Source: Planctomycetota bacterium
GTDB lineage: Bacteria; Planctomycetota; UBA8108; SXIK01
Direction of reading: 5' to 3'
Length of the DNA stretch: 64,000 nt
NCBI GenBank assembly: GCA_965223265.1
Contig: OZ244999.1
Span: 4,448,001-4,512,000 of the forward strand
In this document: one piece after another, positions 47,441 through 58,157 of the stretch
Numbering within the stretch: position 1 is the first letter of the stretch
Layout of the letters: each line of letters starts with the position of its first letter
Notes under the pieces: generated by a model
What the model saw: the letters and a program-made list of their open reading frames with translations, nothing else
What the model was told of the DNA's origin: nothing
Databases searched by the model: none
Translations under genes and position numbers: made by a program

Positions 47441-49978
47441 TCAGAGAAGACGAAAAGCCTTTCGCAGCATCCACTCGATGGCGATCAAAGTCGTGAAAGC
47501 GATCAGTACCCACGGCTCGTCCCACACCGAATCGTCGTGGAAACCGCCGCGCTGCAGCTGCGACCGCCCCTTCACGCCGTCGATCAACTCACCAGCCCGA
47601 GACATCTCATACACCGCGCCGCCTGTCGTCGCGGCGATCTCCTTGAGCACACCGTCATTGCGGCGCGGGTCACGAAGCTCGACGGTCGGTACGGCGACGT
47701 TCACAGCTCGAAACGTCAATTTCTCAGCCGCCGTTCCCAGCCACAGCTCGTGCGTCCCAAGACGATCCGCAACCACTGTGCCGAAGTACGTGCCGCGCCC
47801 ACGCACTGGATCGAGATCGAGCTGAACCTCGCGCGGCAAATCAGCGTCACCGAGCGCTTTGTGGTAAACGGTCAGCTGTGGATCCGAAATCGGTCGCAAA
47901 TTCGCATCAAAGACCCTGCACTGCACGTTGATCGACTCACCCAGTTGATACGTGCTCTTGTCCGTCGTGATGCTATATCGAGGCGTTTTTCCTAGCAGTC
48001 GCCCGGTTGCAGCGAAACGACACACCTGTCCCCAAAAACGTTCGACAAAGCGCGGATCAAGCGCACGCCAACGCCAAGTCGCATCCACTGCGCTAAAGAA
48101 CGTTCGTCCTTTGCCGTAGTTCATGTATGCAAAAATCGGCATCGCCTTGCCATCGTCGAGGTGCCGGATCTTCTCTGGGTGAGTCGCCAGCACGACGGCC
48201 CCCTTCTTGGCACGCCCGACTTCGGCGAACCAAAAGAAACCAGGTAGATTCTCAAACGCTCTCTTGAGTGGATTCTCCCACAACTCAATGTTGCGCTCGG
48301 GGTCGTTGTCGAGCCGCATGAGGCTGTGTTCCTTACCTGCGGGCGTCAAACGAACGTTGAACGACTGCGTGATCGGTGCATCGTTGTAGACCCATGCGAC
48401 GCTCTGACCTTCCGGCACTTCCACTGGCAACAGACTATAGAGTTCGGTGTCGCGGTAGTGCACGGGGTTGGCGCTGTCACCGGCAATGAACACGACGCCG
48501 CCGCCGGCCTCGTCAACGAATTCTTTGATGAGCGCCATTTCGTTTGCGGACAGAAAACGCGCGCTTCCGGAACGATCCGTACTGACGTCACCAATGATGA
48601 TGACGTGGTACTTGAACAGCTCACTTTTCTCCGCCGGAAAGCGGCGCAGCGGTGGGACATCGCGTGAACTCTCCTGGATGAAATCGTCGTCCGCGGAATA
48701 GAGCAGCACCTGCGCTTCCACCGTCGGGTCGCGCACCAGCGTCGACTTCAGGAAGCGATACTCATAGCGTGGACGCCCTTCGACGTAGAGGACGCGAATC
48801 TTCTGATCGAGCACTCGAATCGGCTTGGACTTCCGATTGTTGTCGGCGAAGAGTTCGCCGCCAAGCACCTCCACCTCGACTGTTGCGGTGAAATCGCCCG
48901 GATCTGGTGGCTGATACTCAAGGCGCACGATTTGCCGTCGGCCGTCACCCTCAAGGACGACGGACTCACTGTCGACGGTGAGAGCGTCGAACTTCAAATC
49001 GACGCGGACGGACTCGCCTTCGAACCCATCAGCAACAATCGAGACGTCAAACGGGACCTTGTCTCCGGCCAAAACGACGTCATTCGCTTCCAGGTGGATC
49101 AGGCGGATGTCCTTGGGTTCATTCGGGTTGCCGACGGCGATGCAGTGGACAGTGATTCCTCGCTGTCGAAGGCGCCGTGACACATCGCCGATCGTGTTGG
49201 CTCCGCCTGTATCCTGCCCGTCCGAGATCAGGACGACGCCGGCAATGTCTCGGTGCCGCGCTCCGAAGCCGCCGCCGCGAGCACTGGCGACCGAATCGAT
49301 CAACGCATCGGCAATCCTCGTTTGCCGCACGCGCTCGTCGACACGAAGCTTCGAGTAATCCGGGAGCATGTCGGCAGCCCGTGACGCTTCGGTGGCATCG
49401 TCAAGCACCGCGGCGTCCTTTTCTTTAAGCCGCGTCAGCGTATCCAGTCGCTGAATAGCCGACGAAAACGAAAACACCGCCACCTCCGCCTTGGAACGGA
49501 GACGATGAATCAATCGGATCTCGTCGTCGCGAAACAGTCGCCGCACAAGATCGTAGCGCTTCGTCGACTCAATGGTGTCTGGGCTGGCACGAAAGAACGC
49601 CGCAAGGTCGTCCACCAACTCTCGATCCGAGTACTTGTCCGCGATATCCATGCTCAAAGAATCATCGACAAGCACAACGAACACCGACTCTTGAACGAGG
49701 AACTTGGTCGTCCGCACGACTGGCTCGCCGATCATGAGAAGGATCATCACGATGACCGCCACACGAATAGAGATGAGCCCCCATCGCACAACACGACCGC
49801 CCGAAAGGCGCTCGCGCCGGTAGATGAACCGCACAAACAGCACAACGACCGGCAAGATCACGAGCAGAAAAAACCACGCGGGAACACCACTCAGCCAACG
49901 AAACTCTCTGAGCGTTTCCTCCTCGGCCTGCGCCAACATGACAGGCGCAGAGCGGAACATGTCGATTAAAGGGTTCAT
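47441..49978 (-). CDS. Membrane protein with vWA, Ig-like and GATase1-like domains
   Basis: Two N-terminal TM helices; MIDAS DDSLS..T..SDG; VLYVEGRPRYEYRFL; GGGVVFIAG; TWRWR; C-terminal IEWMLRK. Confidence 0.85.
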   Translation of the reverse strand: MNPLIDMFRSAPVMLAQAEEETLREFRWLSGVPAWFFLLVILPVVVLFVRFIYRRERLSGGRVVRWGLISIRVAVIVMILLMIGEPVVRTTKFLVQESVFVVLVDDSLSMDIADKYSDRELVDDLAAFFRASPDTIESTKRYDLVRRLFRDDEIRLIHRLRSKAEVAVFSFSSAIQRLDTLTRLKEKDAAVLDDATEASRAADMLPDYSKLRVDERVRQTRIADALIDSVASARGGGFGARHRDIAGVVLISDGQDTGGANTIGDVSRRLRQRGITVHCIAVGNPNEPKDIRLIHLEANDVVLAGDKVPFDVSIVADGFEGESVRVDLKFDALTVDSESVVLEGDGRRQIVRLEYQPPDPGDFTATVEVEVLGGELFADNNRKSKPIRVLDQKIRVLYVEGRPRYEYRFLKSTLVRDPTVEAQVLLYSADDDFIQESSRDVPPLRRFPAEKSELFKYHVIIIGDVSTDRSGSARFLSANEMALIKEFVDEAGGGVVFIAGDSANPVHYRDTELYSLLPVEVPEGQSVAWVYNDAPITQSFNVRLTPAGKEHSLMRLDNDPERNIELWENPLKRAFENLPGFFWFAEVGRAKKGAVVLATHPEKIRHLDDGKAMPIFAYMNYGKGRTFFSAVDATWRWRALDPRFVERFWGQVCRFAATGRLLGKTPRYSITTDKSTYQLGESINVQCRVFDANLRPISDPQLTVYHKALGDADLPREVQLDLDPVRGRGTYFGTVVADRLGTHELWLGTAAEKLTFRAVNVAVPTVELRDPRRNDGVLKEIAATTGGAVYEMSRAGELIDGVKGRSQLQRGGFHDDSVWDEPWVLIAFTTLIAIEWMLRKAFRLL

Positions 49979-52284
49979 ACCGCTCTCCTACCGAAGAGCC
50001 ATGCGAGGACCGACTCGCAAACCAGCAGAGCCAGAACTGCGGCGATCGCCGCGCGCCAAAACTCTCGACCGCGAGCTAGGGACTGCTCCTCCGCGACGTC
50101 CTCAAGACGCTGCTCGACGTCAAGCGCCTGAAATTTCAAGTTATCGTACACGCGCCGCAAGTCATCCTCTTCGAGGCGTGTCAGATCGCCTTCGTCGCCC
50201 TCAACGTTGGCGCAAAAATACTCGACCGTGTCTTCCTCAGGCGAGTGGGGCCGACGAAGGTCGAGTCTGTAGATGCCAGGAATCGCAGTATCCTCGTGGA
50301 GAATGCGAAACGACTTTTCGGTTTCGTCCTGACGCATCGTCTTGTGCGCGTTCCGAATGCGTTCACCACCACTCAGTCCGGCGAAGTCAATCGGCAACTG
50401 CAGCGTCACCTCCGACGCGAACTCCTCCGCCGGGTAGACGCGCGCGAACGGCATTCCGACACGGAGGTTCGAGGTGTCCGATCTGAAGGTCATAAGATAG
50501 TTGATCGTCTCGTGCAGCAAGATGACGAAGTCGGGATAGTCGGACAGATCTGTCCACGCTTGATCCGCAGTCGCGTTCACCCAAAACACTCTTCCCCTTC
50601 CATACGCGGCGTCGAAGAGAGCCGGCGTCTTCTCAGCATCCGTGTAACGGTGGCTGATCCGAAACCTGCGCGATTCCTCAAGCAGCGGCTCGACAGCAAA
50701 GTAGCGGGTAAACGAAGCGAGCGGTCGATGTAGGTCCGTCTCCGTCGCGTGGTCGTGGAAGTATTTGGCCAGCGGATGCGCGCCGTCGCTCACACCGAGG
50801 TGAATGGGAAACGCTGGATCGCCTCGCACGTCGCCCAATCGCACGGGCAGGAGACTCTCGCCGCCCTCCTCGTGAAAAAGCTCGTGGTAGAGGTCAGCTT
50901 GAACGCGATCCCCGAAAAAACCAAGAAGGAGGCCCCCACCCTTGACGAATGCCTGCATGCGCTTGACGTCAGCGCGCGCGAACGAGCCGACGTTGGCACA
51001 AACGATGAGCGAAAAGTCGTCTAGCTCTACATCTGACAGCTGCTCGGCCTGCACGACGAGTGGCTCGAAGGGTGTCAGGCGCCCCTCGATCGAGGCCATG
51101 GAATCGTCCTCGGCCGCCAGCGCCAGTTGCAAATGAAACGTCTCCGCGTCGAGCGGGTCCGTGCCAGGATCGCCGTCGACGAGAAGGACGCGAACCGCTT
51201 CCGCCACGTTCGTGACAAGAAATCGCTTGTTGTCGAGCCCCAGCCCGTCGGAGCGCAGTTCAGCAACGACACTGTGGTCGCCAGCGCGGTCAAAACGATA
51301 TCGCATCGTCCGGGTGACGAATCCGTGTGCCGGCACGCGGACGACATGGCCGAGCTGCGGTTCCGCTGCACCTTCGGAGAGGTCGGGGTCGACTTGAATC
51401 GTCAGGTCAACGTTGTCTATGTCGGTATCGCCGAAGTTCTGAACCGTGGCGCTGAGCTCGACCCAAACGTCGCGCGCCACGACAGTCGGAGCCACCGACA
51501 GGTCCGCAAGCGCCAAGTTAGGTCGAACCGCACCCGGACCGAGCACAGCAAGAGAAATCTGCCCACCATCAGCTTGCAGCTTGTCAATAAACTGACGGAC
51601 GCCTGGATAGCGCGGCTCGTCCCCGGTCAGCCAGTCCTTTCGTTGCAGGTCGCTGAAGAGAACGATGCGTTTGGCTTCGGGATCTCCGGTGTCAGTGACG
51701 AATTGATTCGAAAGCTCTTCAAGGACTGCGAAGCTTGCGCCAAGATCGACCGAATCAGAGCTCAGCGAGAGTCGCTCAAGCTCAGTTCGAAGAGTCGAAG
51801 CGAACGCATCCGTGACGATCGTGCGCGGCACGAGGACTCGTGGCTGCCGCTCGAACGTCATGACAGCAACGGCATTTCCCTTATCGATCAACGTCTCGGC
51901 AACTTTCAGAAGCGAGTCGCGCGCCGCGTCGAAGAGACTCTGGTTGTCTTCGTCATAGCTCATGCTGTACGAGGCGTCGATGGCAAGAATCCAGTTGCGG
52001 TCGTCCCCCGCCACACCTCCCAGGCTAGTTGTGCGGAACACTGGCCGCGCCATCGCCAGCGCCAAGAAAAAGAGGATCGCACAGCGAATCAACAGGAGGA
52101 GAAGATTCTGCAGCTGAATCCTCTTCTGATGCCTCTTCACTGCCCGCAGCAAGAACTCCATCGCGGCCCAGCGCCGGCGGCGGTAGCGATGTCGCTGGAA
52201 CAGATAGATCAGGATCGGCACCGACACGAGCAGCATGCCGAAAAGAAGCTGGGGCTGGAGAAAAAACTGGCTCAAGGTCGGCAC
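49975..52284 (-). CDS. BatA-domain / vWA / CARDB-like membrane protein
   Basis: 'VPILIYLF...RWAAMEFL...LLLLIRC...ARP' BatA N-terminus; DASYS; FSDLQ; DNKRF; C-terminal TM ending CESVLA. Confidence 0.88.
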   Translation of the reverse strand: MPTLSQFFLQPQLLFGMLLVSVPILIYLFQRHRYRRRRWAAMEFLLRAVKRHQKRIQLQNLLLLLIRCAILFFLALAMARPVFRTTSLGGVAGDDRNWILAIDASYSMSYDEDNQSLFDAARDSLLKVAETLIDKGNAVAVMTFERQPRVLVPRTIVTDAFASTLRTELERLSLSSDSVDLGASFAVLEELSNQFVTDTGDPEAKRIVLFSDLQRKDWLTGDEPRYPGVRQFIDKLQADGGQISLAVLGPGAVRPNLALADLSVAPTVVARDVWVELSATVQNFGDTDIDNVDLTIQVDPDLSEGAAEPQLGHVVRVPAHGFVTRTMRYRFDRAGDHSVVAELRSDGLGLDNKRFLVTNVAEAVRVLLVDGDPGTDPLDAETFHLQLALAAEDDSMASIEGRLTPFEPLVVQAEQLSDVELDDFSLIVCANVGSFARADVKRMQAFVKGGGLLLGFFGDRVQADLYHELFHEEGGESLLPVRLGDVRGDPAFPIHLGVSDGAHPLAKYFHDHATETDLHRPLASFTRYFAVEPLLEESRRFRISHRYTDAEKTPALFDAAYGRGRVFWVNATADQAWTDLSDYPDFVILLHETINYLMTFRSDTSNLRVGMPFARVYPAEEFASEVTLQLPIDFAGLSGGERIRNAHKTMRQDETEKSFRILHEDTAIPGIYRLDLRRPHSPEEDTVEYFCANVEGDEGDLTRLEEDDLRRVYDNLKFQALDVEQRLEDVAEEQSLARGREFWRAAIAAVLALLVCESVLAWLFGRRAV

Positions 52285-53303
52285 TCCTCCGTACCCCCGT
52301 TCGACACGGACGACATAGAAGTGCTACTACGTCGCTCGACGGCGACAGACGAACCACGCGCCAATCCGTGTGCAGAGGTCTGATTCGAGATCACGTCGTC
52401 ATACTCCCGGCGCGCTTCGCGAGAAACGACGTCAAGGCGACGTGAAGCTTCTGGCGCGTGTCGAGTTGGACGTAGTCGATCTGATTCTGACGACACACCT
52501 TTCGCAGCTCCTCTAGGTACGCGTTTAACTCCTCTAGATAGCCGCGCCTGAGCGCCCGCGGATCGGCCACGAGCTCCGGCAAAGCCTCCATGCCCTCAAA
52601 GAGCGTCATGCGCTGGAAAGGAAACGTCAGCTCCTCGTGATCGAGCACATGAAAGACCAGAACTTCATGCTCTTTGTAGCGCAAATGCTGTAGGCCGCGC
52701 GTGACGTTTTCGATACTGTCGAAACAGTCGGAGATAATCACGACCAAGCCCTTGCGCTTGATGCGGTCTGCGAACTCATTGAGGATCATTCCGAGATCGG
52801 TCTTGCCGGCTCGTGGCACCGTGTCGAGTACGTCGAGAACGTTCTGCAGCTGGCCGGGACTCGAGCTCGGAGGCACAAACTGGCGGACACGATCATCGAA
52901 CACAGCCATCCCCACCGCATCCTGTTGCCTCAAGACGAGGTAGGAGAGCGCTGCCGCAATGTACGTCGAGTACTCAAACTTCGAGATCACCGGATCGTCG
53001 CCGCGACGCCCGCCTCCCGCCTCCGGGTAAGCCATTGACTCGGAGGCATCCAGCAGGACATAGAGCTTGAGGTTCGTCTCCTCTTCGTACTGCTTGATGT
53101 AAAACCGGTCGGAACGCCCGAAGACCTTCCAATCGATATGGCGGATATCGTCGCCGGGCACATATTCGCGATGTTCTGCGAACTCGATGCTCAGGCCGTG
53201 ATAAGGGCTGCGATGAAGACCTGAGATGAAGCCCTCAACGATCAGCCGCGCCTTGAGCTCGAGACGCGAGATATTGGCCAGGACCTTCGGATCTAGATAG
53301 CGT

Positions 53304-54404
<1,101 letters not shown>

Positions 54405-55105
54405 TGTCCTGACTCCTTCTCTCTTTGGAGCACCTCACCGGAGGAATCCCTCGGCTTCCACCAGACGGGTCGCGTCGATGGTGCCAGGTCGCAGACTTCT
54501 CGCAGATCCGCGGCGATAGCCTGAGCTCCTGGCGGCGCCTGCCGCAGTCGCCACAGGCCGCCTCTCAACTCCGAGCGACTTCTCCCTGGGAAGCTGCTAA
54601 AGCCTTTCTTCACAATCAGTTTCAAATGCGGTGCCCCATCTTAGGGGGACCCTTGTGGCATTGCAATTGGCGGTTTGCGCCGCGCTGTCGGGCGCGGCTC
54701 GCACCACCCCATCATCTTGTCGGCCTTTTGGGGAGATAACACGACTAAATCCTTGATTTCCGCGACCACAAACTTATCCTTAGGGCCCCCTGTAATGATC
54801 CAACTCGTAGCGATTCTCCAGGCGCTGGCTTTCTTTCAGCGCGGTGGCTTTCTTCAGCCGCGCATTTCTGAGGCTGCGCCTAGCTCAGGGGCCCAGCGGT
54901 TGCCACTGCGAGTGGCTCCCCTCTCCTCCGCCGCCTCGCAGCGCAGGGCGCCGGCTCTGCGAGCGATGGGATCAGGCCCTCGGTGGCCGAATTCATCGCG
55001 CCCCCGTGGAGAAACGCCGCCGCGGCGCGGTAGCATCTGTGGCGATCGCTGTCGCGGCGCTAGCGCGACGTGCACCGCCGGAACAAAGCATCAATGAGGA
55101 CAGCC

Positions 55106-56614
55106 ATGGACGGCGAAAGCGCGCAGGAACTATTCGGTAGTCGGCAAGGGCTCACCTACAACGACTTCATCCTGCTACCGGGCTATATCGACTTCGCGGC
55201 GGACGATGTCGATCTGTCGACGCGAATTAGCCGCAATATTACGCTCAAGGCTCCGATCGTCAGCTCGCCGATGGACACGGTCACCGAAGCGCAGCTAGCG
55301 ATCTCGCTGGCACTGCAGGGCGGGATCGGCATCGTCCACTACAACAACACGATCGAGGCGCAAGTGAAGGAAGTGCGCAAGGTCAAACGCTTCGAGAACG
55401 GGTTCATTACGGACCCGATCGTGCTCAGCCCGGACCACACCATTCGCGATATCGACCGTATTCGCGAGAAGGAAGGATTCTCTGGGATTCCGATCACCGA
55501 GGACGGAACCCTTGAGACGCCCCTCGTCGGCATCGTCACCAATCGTGACATCGATTTCGAACCCGAACGCGACCGACCGCTCGGCGAGATGATGGTGAAG
55601 GGAAACGATCTGATCACCGCCCCGGAGGGAGTCTCTCTGGCTGAAGCGAATCGCGTCCTACGACAATCCAAGAAGGGCAAACTACCAATCGTTAACAGCG
55701 AAGGGTGCCTGGTGTCCCTCGTTTCGCGCACTGATTTGAAGAAGAACCGAGACTTTCCCGAAGCCTGCAAGGATTCGAGCAAACAACTCCGAGTCGGCGC
55801 TGCTGTGTCGACGCGGACGGACGACCGTGAACGCGTCACCGAGCTCGTCAATGCCGGGGTCGACCTGATCGTGATCGACAGCGCGCAAGGCGACTCCGTG
55901 TTTCAAGCCGGGATGCTCGAGTACATCAAATCCCGGCACCCGGAGGTGGAAGTCGTCGCCGGCAACGTCGTCACGTCAGAGCAATGTGAACACTTGATCA
56001 GAGCAGGCGCTGACGGCATCCGAGTCGGCATGGGCCCTGGCTCTATCTGCACGACTCAGGAGACGATGGCCTGCGGACGTGCCCAAGCGACGGCCGTGTA
56101 TCACTGCGCACGCCTCTGCCGCGAGCACGAGATTCCGGTCATCGCCGACGGCGGCATCGCCACCACCGGCGCACTGACAAAAGCCCTGTGCTGCGGCGCC
56201 AACGCGGGCATGATGGGGTCCCTGTTCGCCGGCACTCACGAAGCACCGGGCGAGTACTTCTACAAAGACGGGGTTCGCGTTAAGAAGTATCGAGGTATGG
56301 CGTCTATGGAGGCAATGGCCAAGGGTGGCGGCAAGAGGTACTTGTATGACGACAATCACCTCACGGTAGCGCAAGGCGTCTCCGGCCTCGTCGTCGACAA
56401 GGGGTCGGTTCTCGACCTCATTCCCTACATCGTTCAAAGCCTGCGACAAAGTCTGCAAGACCTCGGGCGCCGAAGCATTCAAGAACTCCATGAAGCGGTG
56501 TTCTCGGGCGACCTACGCTATGAACGACGCAGCGCGTCGGCTCAGCGTGAGGGGTACGTGCACAGTCTAATGGCGTACGAAGAACCAGTCCTCGGCGTCA
56601 AAGAGAAACAATAA
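55106..56614 (+). CDS. guaB: IMP dehydrogenase (eukaryote-type sequence, with CBS pair)
   Basis: [17 protein letters not shown] (catalytic Cys), IADGGI, KKYRGM; GAGGA upstream of ATG 55106; adjacent to guaA. Confidence 0.97.
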
Positions 56615-56618
56615 GCTC

Positions 56619-58157
56619 ATGGCAGAGCTCGTCGCTATTCTTGACTTTGGGTCGCAGTACACACAACTCATCGCACGCCGCGTGCGAGAGAATCGCGTCT
56701 ATTGCGAAATCCTTCCTCACGACACCTCCGCGGCGGAGCTTGCGGCGACACCCAAGCTCAAGGGTGTCATCCTTTCGGGAGGGCCGGCGAGCGTCTACGA
56801 GCCGGACGCACCTGGCTTCGACCCCGAGATTCTCCACTTGGGCATTCCTGTTCTGGGGATCTGCTACGGCATGCAGCTCGCTTGCCGCGCTCTGGGCGGA
56901 CGCGTCCTGCGCGCCGAGCGCCACGAGTACGGTGCTGCTACGGCTGAAATGACAGACGATGCACTCTTTGCCGGAATCCACAAGTCCACGACAGTGTGGA
57001 TGAGCCATGGCGACCAAGTTGATTTCGTCGATGACTCGTTCGTCACACTAGCGACAACGGACACGTGCAAGTACGCCGCCGTCAGACATTCGGCAACAGG
57101 ATTCCTCGGCCTGCAGTTTCACCCGGAAGTAACCCACACGCCGGAAGGTAAGCGGATCCTGAACAACTTTCTGTATCAAATCTGCGCCTGCCGGGGCGAT
57201 TGGACACTCAGCAGCTTCATCGAAGAGCAAGTGACTGCGATTCGCGACAAAGTCGGCTCGGCGTCCGTTGTTTGCGGACTCTCGGGCGGCATCGACTCTT
57301 CGGTCGTCGCACTGTTGATTCACCGCGCGATCGGCAAACAACTCCACTGCATCTTCGTCGACAACGGCCTCCTGCGCGAAGGCGAGCGTGAACAGGTGAT
57401 CGTCACATTCGAAAAGCACTTCCAGCTGAACTTTCACCTTGTCGACGCCAGCGAGAGGTTCCTCGAACAGCTCAGAGATGTCACAGACCCTGAGACCAAG
57501 CGCAAGCGCATCGGCCATGCATTCGTTGATGTTTTCAAGGAGAAGGCGCAGCAGCTGCAAGATGTGCAGTTCCTGGCGCAAGGCACGCTCTATCCGGACA
57601 TCATCGAAAGCGTCTCTCCCCGCGGCGGACCTTCCGCGACGATCAAAAGCCACCACAACGTCGGCGGTCTTCCCGAAGAGCTCGGCTTCGAGCTGCTGGA
57701 GCCTCTTAAATATCTTTTCAAAGATGAAGTGCGAGCAATCGGCAGCGAGCTTGGACTCCCAGATCAAATCCTGTACCGCCAACCGTTTCCGGGTCCTGGC
57801 CTTGCAGTGCGGGTTGTCGGCGCGGTCGATGAAGAGAAACTCGCGATCCTTCGCGCCGCGGACAACGTCGTCCAAGAAGAAATCGAGAGCTTCGAATTTC
57901 ATCGCGAAATCTGGCAGTCATTCGCAGTCTTAGTGCCGGTACGCACCGTGGGAGTCATGGGTGATCGACGCACCTACGACTACGTGATTGCGCTGCGCGT
58001 CGTGGAGTCGACCGATGGCATGACAGCCAACTGGGTCTATCTACCACGCGAGCTGCTCGGTCGCATCTCGAACCGGATCGGCAATGAAGTGAACGGTGTC
58101 AACCGCGTGGTTCTAGACGTCAGCTCAAAACCACCGTCAACGATCGAGTGGGAATGA
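56619..58157 (+). CDS. guaA: GMP synthase
   Basis: LDFGSQYTQLIARR, GICYGMQ, QFHPEV, SGGIDSS, IKSHHNVGGLP, KPPSTIEWE. Confidence 0.98.
   Translation: MAELVAILDFGSQYTQLIARRVRENRVYCEILPHDTSAAELAATPKLKGVILSGGPASVYEPDAPGFDPEILHLGIPVLGICYGMQLACRALGGRVLRAERHEYGAATAEMTDDALFAGIHKSTTVWMSHGDQVDFVDDSFVTLATTDTCKYAAVRHSATGFLGLQFHPEVTHTPEGKRILNNFLYQICACRGDWTLSSFIEEQVTAIRDKVGSASVVCGLSGGIDSSVVALLIHRAIGKQLHCIFVDNGLLREGEREQVIVTFEKHFQLNFHLVDASERFLEQLRDVTDPETKRKRIGHAFVDVFKEKAQQLQDVQFLAQGTLYPDIIESVSPRGGPSATIKSHHNVGGLPEELGFELLEPLKYLFKDEVRAIGSELGLPDQILYRQPFPGPGLAVRVVGAVDEEKLAILRAADNVVQEEIESFEFHREIWQSFAVLVPVRTVGVMGDRRTYDYVIALRVVESTDGMTANWVYLPRELLGRISNRIGNEVNGVNRVVLDVSSKPPSTIEWE

What the first reader, a model, noticed from the sequence alone, without database searches (positions are those of the whole stretch)
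55106..56614. Eukaryote-type IMP dehydrogenase inside a bacterial guaBA operon
Seen: [83 protein letters not shown] and [15 protein letters not shown]. Established (sequences recalled from memory): human IMPDH2 has GLTYNDFLILPGYIDF, RVGMGSGSICITQ, VAQGVSG and SAQVEGGVHSLHSYE, whereas typical bacterial GuaB has [21 protein letters not shown] and VPEG[IV]EG. The adjacent guaA looks normally bacterial. Inference: either in-situ xenologous replacement or membership of a bacterial clade sister to eukaryotic IMPDH (I recall Leptospira enzymes being similar, so the type may be known). This predicts mycophenolate sensitivity and possibly GTP allostery. The N-terminal Tyr used for human filament assembly is absent.
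Basis: partly seen in the sequence, partly recalled or inferred. Interest (0 to 1): 0.72.

Follow-up and report, generated by a model that had tools for sequence, protein, structure and literature searches.

The report
Eukaryote-type IMP dehydrogenase in a planctomycete
The only IMP dehydrogenase gene of this large planctomycete genome is of the kind typical of eukaryotes, down to the residues through which GTP switches off the fungal and human enzymes, and it belongs to a bacterial branch shared with Leptospira whose relation to eukaryotes remains unresolved.

Summary
ORF 55106-56614 (+), 502 aa, is a full-length IMP dehydrogenase, and all nine quoted motifs are present. It scores 625 bits against IMPDH1 structures but at most 388 bits against chains I recall as bacterial. 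It is 52-61% identical to most named eukaryotic IMPDHs and 38% identical to E. coli GuaB. It is the only IMPDH in its 9.18 Mb genome and lies 4 nt upstream of a bacterial-type guaA.

The gene is not a recent import. It belongs to a supported bacterial clade (96/89) found in 39 of 201 sampled Planctomycetota, 37 of 121 sampled Spirochaetota (named loci are Leptospirales), and two Armatimonadota MAGs. The remaining matched genomes have lower-scoring matches; those listed or fetched are canonical GuaB at 38-46% identity. A second bacterial group (Vampirovibrionia) also carries the eukaryote type.

A site-heterogeneous ML tree puts the clade with all eukaryotes (96/98), away from canonical GuaB (100/100). 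Sister versus nested position is unresolved (AU p = 0.24).

The clade keeps the KKGK motif, the "eukaryote-exclusive" third GTP site, the Arg/Gln mycophenolate pair and the eukaryotic NAD adenosine-subsite residue. I predict eukaryote-like GTP feedback and mycophenolate sensitivity. Neither was tested. It is a new member of a known kind, of moderate interest.

The parts
55096..55100 (+). Shine-Dalgarno-like GAGGA, 5 nt before the ATG at 55106
   Evidence: Read directly. No functional test was done.
55106..56614 (+). guaB: eukaryote-type IMP dehydrogenase, 502 aa (P0001). It is the only IMPDH of the genome.
55397..55771 (+). Bateman (CBS pair) regulatory domain, about residues 98-222. It holds the residues of canonical nucleotide sites 1 and 2 and of the non-canonical GTP site 3: N98, G99, L178, N182, V206, L211, K222, with K226 just beyond.
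   Evidence: Pfam CBS gives 2 stretches. Residues were mapped from Buey 2015 through. The boundaries are approximate.
55670..55681 (+). KKGK motif (K189-K192). Gly191 stands where canonical bacterial enzymes have the Mg-ATP-binding Glu.
   Evidence: Gly in 91 of 91 clade members, Glu in 11 of 11 canonical GuaBs. The meaning of the motif comes from PMC4660370.
56021..56059 (+). Active-site loop [13 protein letters not shown], with the catalytic Cys315 (56048-56050) and Arg306, the equivalent of human Arg322.
56366..56386 (+). VAQGVSG with Gln423, the equivalent of human Gln441 and of Glu431 in prokaryotic enzymes.
   Evidence: Gln in 90 of 91 clade members, Glu in 11 of 11 canonical GuaBs. PMC2525682 covers the Glu/Gln difference.
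56619..58157 (+). guaA: bacterial-type glutamine-hydrolysing GMP synthase, 512 aa (P0002), 4 nt downstream of guaB.
   Evidence: NF000848 scores 781 bits over 1-512/512. PDB 1gpm scores 587 bits over the full length.

Best explanation
The ORF is the genome's single, working guaB. It encodes an IMP dehydrogenase that makes XMP from IMP with NAD+ and feeds the guaA product encoded 4 nt downstream. The enzyme belongs to the eukaryote-type branch of the IMPDH family, not to the canonical bacterial GuaB branch. It sits in an old, purely bacterial sub-clade of that branch. The sub-clade is found in a minority of Planctomycetota (including all ten sampled genomes of the window's own class and the anammox lineages), in Leptospirales and in a few other MAGs. 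In these genomes it generally stands in place of the canonical enzyme, so an ancient horizontal transfer followed by displacement is inferred. The direction of transfer relative to eukaryotes is open. From the conserved residues I infer that it works like fungal and human IMPDH. That means NAD+ bound with its adenosine in the same-subunit pocket, water activation by the Arg-Tyr dyad only (Gln in place of the prokaryotic Glu), sensitivity to mycophenolic acid, and feedback inhibition by GTP/GDP. The feedback would act through canonical site 2 plus the non-canonical site 3 of the Bateman domain and compact the octamer. It would not form vertebrate-type filaments. Shown here: gene, family, clade, distribution and residue conservation. 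Inferred: all the biochemistry.
For: Family: TIGR01302 scores 630.5 bits (cut-off 481.5), PF00478 scores 446 bits, and there are two CBS stretches. One unbroken alignment covers residues 2-493 against IMPDH1/2 structures at 608-626 bits. The best chains I recall as bacterial score 388, 378 and 346 bits (1vrd, 3tsb, 4dqw).

Sole copy: a PF00478 search of the 9.18 Mb one-contig genome finds one match over the cut-off and one at 20.3 bits.

Native gene: GC is 0.594 and GC3 is 0.726, inside the range 0.63-0.757 of the 33 long open frames of the window. The nearest relative is 79% identical, and the 8 rows with an organism name among the 120 best hits all say Planctomycetota.

Clade: in the IQ-TREE LG+C20+F+G4 tree (73 rows, 499 columns), canonical GuaB splits from the rest at 100/100. 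All 31 eukaryotes plus both bacterial groups form a clade at 96/98, and the window's bacterial clade of 20 rows is supported at 96/89. A 5-residue insertion near the C-terminus is shared with eukaryotes and absent from canonical GuaB.

Distribution: 39 of 201 sampled Planctomycetota genomes carry the type at 60% identity or more, two of them as partial matches (G076, G118); this includes 10 of 10 in the window's own class. So do 37 of 121 sampled Spirochaetota. The 80 named loci comprise 35 Planctomycetota, 37 Leptospirales/Spirochaetota, 2 Armatimonadota, 2 other phyla and 4 unlabelled.

Residues (91 clade members against 11 canonical GuaBs): site 3 has N98 in 90, G99 in 91, L178 in 91, N182 in 91 (canonical E/R/L/K), L211 in 86, K222 in 91 and K226 in 87 (canonical Gly in 11 of 11). 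KKGK Gly191 is present in 91 (canonical Glu 11 of 11). R208 is present in 91 (canonical I/V/M). Arg306 is present in 91 (canonical Lys 11 of 11) and Gln423 in 90 (canonical Glu 11 of 11). Cys315 and Arg396 are invariant in the clade and in canonical GuaB; Tyr395 is Tyr in 89 of 91 and 10 of 11 (Phe otherwise).

the equivalent of human Phe282 is Tyr or Phe in 91 of 91 (canonical Asn in 10 of 11). The equivalent of human Gln277 is Gln in 91 of 91 (canonical His in 11 of 11, the bacterial A-subsite His of PMC4342496).

The meaning of the residues comes from PMC4660370 (passages), PMC9375230 (passages) and PMC2525682 (passages).
Against: No activity, inhibitor or nucleotide-binding datum exists for any member of this bacterial clade in what I could search. 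Everything about regulation rests on conserved residues.

Site 1 is not identical to the fungal one: Ashbya Ser166 is Asn146 here, and Thr184 has no clear counterpart (my reading). Site-3 Leu224 is Val206 (V39, M34, L8, I6 in the clade), as variable as in eukaryotes. Eight of 91 members lack the second Lys of KKGK; L. interrogans reads SKIGK.

Whether the bacterial (p)ppGpp pocket is also present was not mapped.

Displacement is inferred from single-copy status. At least five sampled genomes (four of family f25, plus G099) hold a second full-length IMPDH-family gene.

The backbone of the eukaryote-type clade is a polytomy.
Confidence: 0.85

Rival explanations
1. Origin, version A. A eukaryotic IMPDH gene was transferred into a bacterium after eukaryotes had begun to diversify. 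It then spread between Planctomycetota, Leptospirales and others, so the clade is nested within eukaryotes.
For: Two FastTree runs put the clade as sister of Opisthokonta, with plants, alveolates and stramenopiles outside (SH-like 0.999; 0.896). In the careful tree none of 200 bootstrap trees has eukaryotes as one group. A second bacterial group (Vampirovibrionia-like) is intermixed with Amoebozoa (95/90 for a 9-row set). The patchy distribution in two phyla and Leptospirales nested among planctomycete rows show that the gene moves between bacteria.
Against: The site-heterogeneous tree dissolves the Opisthokonta link into a polytomy. Eukaryote monophyly is not rejected: delta lnL is 18.1 and p-AU is 0.242. 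In that tree three long-branch unnamed proteins, two of them on contigs of 24 and 167 kb and so possibly prokaryotic, join the clade at 83/88. Short-branch and long-branch effects could produce the FastTree result.
Confidence: 0.4
2. Origin, version B. The bacterial clade is sister to, or the source of, the eukaryotic enzyme. Eukaryote-type IMPDH with its third GTP site arose in bacteria and was acquired by the eukaryotic stem.
For: Eukaryote monophyly is not rejected. The rows that branch between canonical GuaB and the eukaryote-type clade lie on long metagenome contigs, and their nearest Atlas clusters are bacterial (weak leads). At least two separate bacterial groups carry the type with fully conserved site-3 residues. 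The clade is deep, with members only 60-65% identical to each other across phyla.
Against: No tree made here recovers eukaryotes as one clade (0 of 200 bootstrap trees). The distribution in bacteria is a minority in both phyla sampled. No archaeal sequences were identified in my set, so an archaeal origin of the eukaryotic gene was not tested.
Confidence: 0.3
3. The enzyme is eukaryote-like in sequence but is regulated like other bacterial IMPDHs, by ATP against (p)ppGpp or by GTP at site 2 only. The site-3 residues would then be conserved for structural reasons.
For: The host is a bacterium, which presumably makes (p)ppGpp. Published work finds a (p)ppGpp pocket in most bacterial phyla (PMC9462843). 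I did not map that pocket here. Kinetoplastid IMPDHs show that eukaryote-type enzymes can abandon site 3 (PMC9375230).
Against: Seven of the eight site-3 positions are kept in 86-91 of 91 members over a divergence of about 40%. That pattern fits purifying selection on a binding pocket. The Glu that binds Mg-ATP in prokaryotic enzymes is Gly in 91 of 91.
Confidence: 0.2
4. The gene is a recent import or an assembly contaminant of eukaryotic origin.
For: Only the high similarity to eukaryotic IMPDH.
Against: The contig is a single 9.18 Mb sequence. The gene lies 4 nt from a bacterial guaA and has bacterial neighbours: MoxR, DUF58 and BatA on one side, ribH, nusB and ftsY on the other. GC3 is typical of the window. 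The best eukaryotic identity is 61%, against 79% to another planctomycete. The type is present in 39 of 201 genomes of the phylum.
Confidence: 0.02
5. It is a canonical bacterial GuaB that converged on eukaryote-like motifs.
For: None beyond the logical possibility.
Against: The similarity runs over the whole length. The tree separates it from canonical GuaB at 100/100. It shares an insertion with eukaryotes.
Confidence: 0.01

Closest known systems
Human IMPDH1 / IMPDH2 (PDB 7rer, 1b3o and others; that these entries are human is my recollection, the tool gives only molecule names)
   Same: Full-length collinear alignment at 608-626 bits. It shares the catalytic Cys and the Arg-Tyr dyad. It also shares Arg322/Gln441, KKGK, Asn198/Leu227/Lys238 of site 3, Arg224 and Asp226.
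   Different: The first 14 residues with Tyr12 are missing, and Glu340 stands where Arg356 makes the filament contact. There are two 2-residue deletions. The host is a bacterium and the gene is in an operon with guaA.
Ashbya gossypii IMPDH (PDB 4z87, 5mcp, 5tc3), the enzyme in which GTP sites 1-3 were defined (PMC4660370)
   Same: 558 bits. Seven of the eight site-3 residues are identical and one is conservative. Site-2 residues Ile121, Phe145, Gly147, Thr227, Asp228, Lys231 and Lys210 are all matched.
   Different: Site-1 Ser166 is Asn146. There is a 2-residue insertion before the site-1 strand, so Thr184 has no clear counterpart.
Canonical bacterial GuaB (E. coli K-12 b2508, and the GuaB of most Planctomycetota)
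   Same: Same reaction, the same barrel plus Bateman layout, the same position upstream of guaA, and the same catalytic Cys/Arg/Tyr.
   Different: Only 38-44% identical. Canonical GuaB has a KVEK/RVEK motif with Glu, a Lys/Glu pair instead of Arg/Gln, and the A-subsite His instead of Gln. It has no site-3 Asn or Lys and lacks the 5-residue C-terminal insertion.
IMPDH of Leptospira and of anammox planctomycetes (Kuenenia, Scalindua). They are annotated in public records only as 'IMP dehydrogenase'.
   Same: Same bacterial clade (96/89), 59-63% identical, with the same regulatory residues.
   Different: No adjacent guaA within 4 kb in any Leptospirales or Brocadiia locus. Adjacency occurs in 20 of 80 loci, all in the window's own subclades. 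L. interrogans reads SKIGK.
Cryptosporidium parvum IMPDH, a bacterial-type enzyme in a eukaryote (acquisition by gene transfer is recalled from the literature, not read here)
   Same: IMPDH type and host domain are mismatched, showing that this gene crosses domains.
   Different: It is the mirror image: there a eukaryote carries the prokaryotic, mycophenolate-resistant type (250 bits to the query).

Membership tests
IMP dehydrogenase (TIGR01302 / PF00478) | Full-length match to the family model above the curated cut-off | tested here: met
   TIGR01302 scores 630.5 bits against 481.5, covering 1-450/450. PF00478 scores 446.1 bits, covering 1-345/345.
IMP dehydrogenase (TIGR01302 / PF00478) | Catalytic Cys in the GSIC loop and the Arg-Tyr dyad on the flap | tested here: met
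   Cys315, Arg396 and Tyr395. Cys and Arg are invariant in 91 clade members; Tyr is present in 89 of 91. Roles come from PMC9375230 and PMC2525682.
IMP dehydrogenase (TIGR01302 / PF00478) | Bateman (CBS pair) domain inserted in the barrel | tested here: met
   Pfam CBS gives 2 stretches. The protein is collinear with full-length structures.
IMP dehydrogenase (TIGR01302 / PF00478) | NAD-dependent oxidation of IMP to XMP (rather than GMP reductase activity) | not testable with these tools
   GMP reductase and GuaB1 models score far below their cut-offs.
Eukaryote-type IMPDH branch | Branches with eukaryotic IMPDHs to the exclusion of canonical bacterial GuaB | tested here: met
   96/98 for the joint clade and 100/100 for the canonical split.
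Eukaryote-type IMPDH branch | KKGK motif (Gly) instead of the prokaryotic RIEK-type motif (Glu), named in PMC4660370 as the footprint of GTP-inhibited enzymes | tested here: met
   K189-K190-G191-K192. Gly occurs in 91 of 91 clade members, and Glu in 11 of 11 canonical GuaBs.
Eukaryote-type IMPDH branch | Non-canonical GTP site 3 residues (Ashbya N118, G119, L196, N200, L224, L229, K240, K245) | tested here: met
   The counterparts are N98, G99, L178, N182, V206, L211, K222 and K226. Seven are identical and one is conservative.
Eukaryote-type IMPDH branch | Arg/Gln pair (human 322/441) in place of the prokaryotic Lys/Glu. The link to mycophenolate sensitivity is recalled from the literature. 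| tested here: met
   Arg306 and Gln423. The Glu-to-Gln change in the eukaryotic branch and in 'a few prokaryotic IMPDHs' is stated in PMC2525682.
Eukaryote-type IMPDH branch | Same-subunit NAD adenosine subsite (human His253/Phe282) | tested here: inconclusive
   The Phe282 equivalent is Phe266 (Tyr or Phe in 91 of 91). Position 253 is Arg237, as in IMPDH1, but is variable in the clade (R42, K27, L14). The bacterial A-subsite His is replaced by Gln in 91 of 91.
Eukaryote-type IMPDH branch | Allosteric inhibition by GTP/GDP with octamer compaction | not testable with these tools
   Needs enzyme kinetics and SAXS or cryo-EM.
Canonical bacterial GuaB | Glu of the RIEK-type motif, the Lys/Glu active-site pair, the A-subsite His, and placement in the bacterial branch | tested here: not met
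   Gly191, Arg306/Gln423 and Gln261. The tree split is 100/100.
Canonical bacterial GuaB | (p)ppGpp pocket of the Bateman domain (S. coelicolor E118, R125, N144) | not tested
   I had no alignment to the S. coelicolor chain and did not map these residues (one search gives the residues).
Vertebrate filament-forming IMPDH | N-terminal tail with Tyr12 contacting Arg356 of the opposite tetramer | tested here: not met
   The protein starts at the equivalent of human residue 15-16. The two upstream in-frame starts add no Tyr. Position 356 is Glu340.

The most novel reading that the evidence does not exclude
The third, guanine-specific allosteric site and the KKGK footprint are described in print as exclusive to eukaryotic IMPDH. 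On this reading they are in fact a bacterial invention. The Planctomycetota/Leptospirales clade, and separately the Vampirovibrionia group, would descend from the lineage that gave the eukaryotic stem its IMPDH. These bacteria would then preserve the ancestral form of eukaryotic GTP feedback control.
Probability: 0.3. Interest if true: 0.75.

Novelty: new member of a known kind. Interest (0 to 1): 0.5.

Why it matters
Papers on IMPDH regulation divide the family into 'eukaryotic' enzymes (inhibited by GTP through three sites, sensitive to mycophenolate) and 'prokaryotic' ones. They state that site 3 is not found in bacterial enzymes (PMC4660370, PMC9462843; passages read).

This gene, about 90 relatives from two bacterial phyla, and a second group in Vampirovibrionia carry the full eukaryotic residue set. 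The rule therefore needs a qualification that can be tested with one recombinant protein.

Three consequences follow. Inhibitors designed to spare the human enzyme by exploiting 'bacterial' features may not act on Leptospira-type IMPDH. Mycophenolate-type compounds may hit these bacteria. The clade is also a natural outgroup, or ingroup, for asking where the eukaryotic enzyme and its GTP feedback came from.

For the window itself the gene is ordinary housekeeping: the only route to XMP.

Tried and rejected
1. Phylum-wide trait. My first reading after one search was that all Planctomycetota have this type. One search refuted it: 39 of 201 genomes.

2. Sister of Opisthokonta. FastTree suggested it twice. 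The LG+C20 PMSF tree and the AU test do not uphold it.

3. Naming the unnamed cluster representatives. Across three cluster-member runs, 11 of 30 proteins asked about could be tied to an organism or a eukaryote transcript collection. Two Atlas look-ups of the rows that branch below the eukaryote-type clade gave only mixed bacterial leads. I therefore cannot say what the prokaryotic sister of the whole eukaryote-type clade is, and no archaeal row was identified.

4. A riboswitch or other known RNA in the 700-nt leader upstream of guaB. Rfam gave 0 matches at E up to 1.

5. Compositional sign of recent transfer: none.

6. Literature. Searches found no paper that describes a eukaryote-type IMPDH in Planctomycetota, Leptospira or Vampirovibrionia. 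The nearest is one sentence in PMC2525682 that Glu431 is Gln 'in a few prokaryotic IMPDHs'. Supplementary trees and alignments were closed: Fig. S4 of PMC2525682, Figs S8-S10 of PMC9462843, and Suppl. Figs 10B and 13A of PMC4660370. They may already show such sequences.

7. Earlier findings of this scan were not open.

8. Not done: structure prediction, complex prediction, and mapping of the (p)ppGpp pocket. At 60% identity to solved structures a fold would add nothing. I had no stored S. coelicolor sequence to map the pocket.
Full report
THE OBSERVATION

The window has one open frame at 55070..56614 on the + strand. The in-frame ATG at 55106 gives a 502-residue protein, P0001. That ATG follows a GAGGA at 55096-55100 by 5 nt.

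The protein matches the NCBIfam IMP dehydrogenase equivalog at 630.5 bits (cut-off 481.5) and Pfam IMPDH at 446 bits, with two CBS stretches. The next gene starts 4 nt after its stop and matches the full length of the bacterial GMP synthase model (781 bits, 1-512/512). Its best solved relative is 1gpm at 587 bits, while the 697-residue 2vxo reaches 313 bits over part of the length. That these are the E. coli and human enzymes is my recollection.

HOW EUKARYOTE-LIKE IT IS

Against all PDB sequences, P0001 aligns in one stretch (2-493) to IMPDH1 at 622-626 bits and IMPDH2 at 602-608 bits. It scores 558 bits against the Ashbya gossypii enzyme, 528-531 against 4af0 and 506-507 against 8c53, 8c51 and 6rfu. 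After the truncated Ashbya construct 4xtd (410 bits), the next chains drop to 388 (1vrd), 383, 378 (3tsb), 360, 352 and 346 bits. The tool gives molecule names only, so the organisms behind these codes are recalled.

By BLASTP it is 52-61% identical to most named eukaryotic IMPDHs. Examples are Pythium 61.3, Phytophthora 60.9, Dictyostelium 58.7, Bombyx 57.0 and Candida 53.7. Five long-branch rows fall to 43-49% (Olea, Aphelenchoides, Siedleckia and two MMETSP transcripts). It is 38.0% identical to E. coli GuaB and 39.8-44.2% to ten canonical planctomycete GuaBs.

IT IS A NATIVE, SINGLE-COPY GENE

The window lies in a single 9,179,496-base contig. A Pfam IMPDH search of that genome finds this gene and one 20-bit match below the cut-off, so there is no second guaB.

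GC (0.594) and third-position GC (0.726) sit inside the spread of the window's 33 long open frames, 0.63-0.757. Neighbours are ordinary bacterial genes: a MoxR-type AAA ATPase, DUF58 and a BatA/VWA protein upstream on the other strand, and lumazine synthase, NusB and an SRP54-type GTPase (by my reading FtsY) downstream. The 700-nt leader holds no Rfam family at E up to 1.

WHO ELSE HAS IT

The 120 best hits among 5.8 billion proteins are 66-79% identical, apart from one 806-residue diatom transcript at 56% (P0073). All 8 rows that carry an organism name say Planctomycetota.

In one genome per species, the 80 best loci are 59-79% identical. By record title they are 35 Planctomycetota (including Kuenenia, Scalindua and Brocadiaceae) and 37 Leptospirales/Spirochaetota (including L. 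interrogans, L. borgpetersenii, L. perolatii, L. fluminis and Turneriella). The rest are 2 Armatimonadota, 1 'Proteobacteria' MAG, 1 Thermodesulfobacteriota MAG and 4 unlabelled.

The type is not phylum-wide. Among 201 sampled Planctomycetota genomes of at least 80% completeness, 196 have a match. The scores are bimodal. Thirty-nine genomes hold a copy at 60% identity or more, two of them as partial matches (G076 and G118). They include all 10 genomes of the window's own class and families f25, f32, f35, f56, f69, f74, f78 and f85. The other 157 matched genomes have only lower-scoring matches; the rows listed are 40-46% identical, and a few genomes have only weak or partial matches.

Among 121 sampled Spirochaetota, 37 hold the type at 58-66%. 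The others hold canonical forms at 38-46%, shorter CBS-less forms or more divergent forms, and 8 have no match.

In the genomes I checked, the eukaryote type is usually the only IMPDH: G000, G120, G156, G175, G152 and the Leptospira genome G201. Four genomes of family f25 also hold a 287-307-bit paralogue, and the 12.3 Mb MAG G099 holds two strong copies.

A profile of non-opisthokont eukaryotes also pulled out a second bacterial set. It contains Vampirovibrio chlorellavorus, Vampirovibrio sp., a Vampirovibrionales MAG and two 'cyanobacterial' MAGs, plus unnamed proteins on contigs of up to 2.87 Mb.

THE TREE

I built a set of 73 rows:
- 20 rows of the window's bacterial group.
- 8 rows of the Vampirovibrionia-like group. 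Four of these are unnamed proteins on 253-665 kb contigs, which I took to be prokaryotic.
- 31 eukaryotes (Opisthokonta, Amoebozoa, a plant, stramenopiles, alveolates, and eukprot/MMETSP transcripts).
- 10 unnamed cluster representatives that branch lower.
- 4 canonical GuaBs.

From the 331-row set I left out the two bird isoforms with odd inserts, one near-duplicate alga and most redundant rows.

IQ-TREE under LG+C20+F+G4 (PMSF), with 1000 ultrafast bootstraps and SH-aLRT, gave the following:
- Canonical GuaB splits from everything else at 100/100.
- One clade at 96/98 holds all eukaryotes, both bacterial groups and three long-branch representatives.
- The window's bacterial group is monophyletic at 96/89. 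Leptospirales and Armatimonadota sit among planctomycete rows, so the gene has moved between phyla.
- The Vampirovibrionia-like rows are intermixed with Amoebozoa (95/90 for a 9-row set).
- The backbone is a polytomy.

FastTree had put the window's group next to Opisthokonta (0.999, 0.896). The better model does not uphold this.

An AU test of eukaryote monophyly (31 rows against 42) gives delta lnL 18.1 and p = 0.242. So 'sister to eukaryotes' and 'nested within eukaryotes' both stand.

A 5-residue insertion before the C-terminal strand is shared by eukaryotes and both bacterial groups and is absent from canonical GuaB. A Gly-to-Ala change (YRGMAS) is seen in all eight rows of the window's bacterial group that were printed and in none of the other 18.

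WHAT THE RESIDUES PREDICT

Buey et al. 2015 (PMC4660370, passages read) defined three GDP sites in the Ashbya enzyme. [quoted passage not shown] The 2022 papers repeat this (PMC9462843; PMC9375230).

I mapped their residue numbers in three steps. The first was the HMMER alignment of a fungal protein to chain 5mcp_A. There every residue named in the paper has the stated letter at chain number minus one. The second was the IMPDH1 alignment. The third was a MAFFT alignment of 331 sequences.

P0001 has the following, counted over 91 members of its clade against 11 canonical GuaBs:
- Site 3: N98 (90 of 91 members), G99 (91), L178 (91), N182 (91; canonical E/R/L/K), V206 (V/M/L/I), L211 (86), K222 (91), K226 (87; canonical Gly 11 of 11).
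- KKGK: Gly191 in 91 of 91 (canonical Glu 11 of 11).
- Site 2 and interface: F125, R208 (91; canonical I/V/M), D210, K213.
- Active-site pair: Arg306 in 91 (canonical Lys 11 of 11) and Gln423 in 90 (canonical Glu 11 of 11).

Min et al. [quoted passage not shown] That is the only printed hint of such bacteria that I found. That Arg/Gln confers mycophenolate sensitivity is recalled from the literature.

The aromatic residue that stacks the NAD adenine in human IMPDH2 (Phe282) is Phe266 here, and Tyr or Phe in 91 of 91 members. The His that does this job in bacterial enzymes is Gln in 91 of 91 (PMC4342496).

The vertebrate filament contact Tyr12-Arg356 (PMC7018514) is absent. The protein begins at the equivalent of residue 15-16, and position 356 is Glu340.

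Not everything matches. Site-1 Ser166 is Asn146. Eight of 91 members lack the second Lys of KKGK. The bacterial (p)ppGpp pocket was not mapped.

THE OPERON QUESTION

guaA follows the eukaryote-type guaB within 50-241 nt in 20 of 80 loci. All 20 are in the window's own subclades, and none is in Leptospirales or Brocadiia. Five loci end less than 1 kb downstream.

Among ten canonical planctomycete loci, guaA follows guaB in three. One further own-class locus has the arrangement, and four loci of families f35 and f56 lack it.

Replacement of a canonical guaB inside an existing guaBA pair is thus possible but not demonstrated.

VERDICT

The gene is the housekeeping IMPDH of this planctomycete and belongs to a bacterial sub-clade of the eukaryote-type IMPDH branch. 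By sequence alone it carries the whole apparatus for eukaryote-style GTP feedback and mycophenolate sensitivity.

It is a new member of a known kind, since the mechanism would be the known eukaryotic one. It nevertheless contradicts a repeated statement in the IMPDH literature and can be tested with one recombinant protein. The direction of transfer between bacteria and eukaryotes is open.

Searches found no description of this clade. Closed supplements may hold one.

Noticed in passing
P0466, P0491, P0496, P0479, P0485 and about 40 unnamed proteins (not in the window): A second, separate bacterial group with eukaryote-type IMPDH: Vampirovibrio chlorellavorus, Vampirovibrionales and 'cyanobacterial' MAGs. 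In the careful tree it is intermixed with Amoebozoa (95/90). All site-3 and KKGK residues are conserved in 46-48 of 48 rows.
   Followed up: partly
G020, G052, G154, G170 (family f25) and G099 (family f69): These planctomycete genomes hold the eukaryote-type gene plus a second full-length IMPDH-family gene: 287-307 bits in f25, and 466 bits in G099. G190 holds two eukaryote-type copies (64% and 62%). Whether these are paralogues, GMP reductases or binning artefacts was not examined.
   Followed up: no
window 54405-55105: A 700-nt non-coding stretch lies between the divergently oriented moxR-like gene and guaB. It has no Rfam match at E up to 1, and only spurious-looking open frames cross it.
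   Followed up: partly
window 49975-54404 (- strand): A BatA/VWA, DUF58 and MoxR-type AAA ATPase gene row lies immediately upstream of guaB on the other strand.
   Followed up: partly
P0073 (eukprot/MMETSP diatom transcript, 806 aa): It scores 782-991 bits in three searches but aligns to only 71-74% of the query. It may be a fused, duplicated or chimeric IMPDH transcript.
   Followed up: no
L039 ('Proteobacteria bacterium' MAG) and L076 ('Thermodesulfobacteriota' MAG): Both carry the eukaryote-type gene. In the trees L039 pairs with a planctomycete row (100/100) and L076 falls inside the anammox group. These could be mis-binned contigs rather than further phyla.
   Followed up: no
G267 and G277 (Spirochaetota): The eukaryote-type match contains in-frame stops (1 TAG; 2 TAA). 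They may be pseudogenes or assembly errors.
   Followed up: no
Unnamed representatives P0131, P0134, P0149, P0150, P0152, P0161, P0136, P0127, P0145, P0138: These long-branch IMPDHs, several on 24-184 kb metagenome contigs, branch between canonical GuaB and the eukaryote-type clade, or in one case next to the window's clade (83/88). Their organisms are unknown, and they may be the key to the origin of the eukaryote type.
   Followed up: partly
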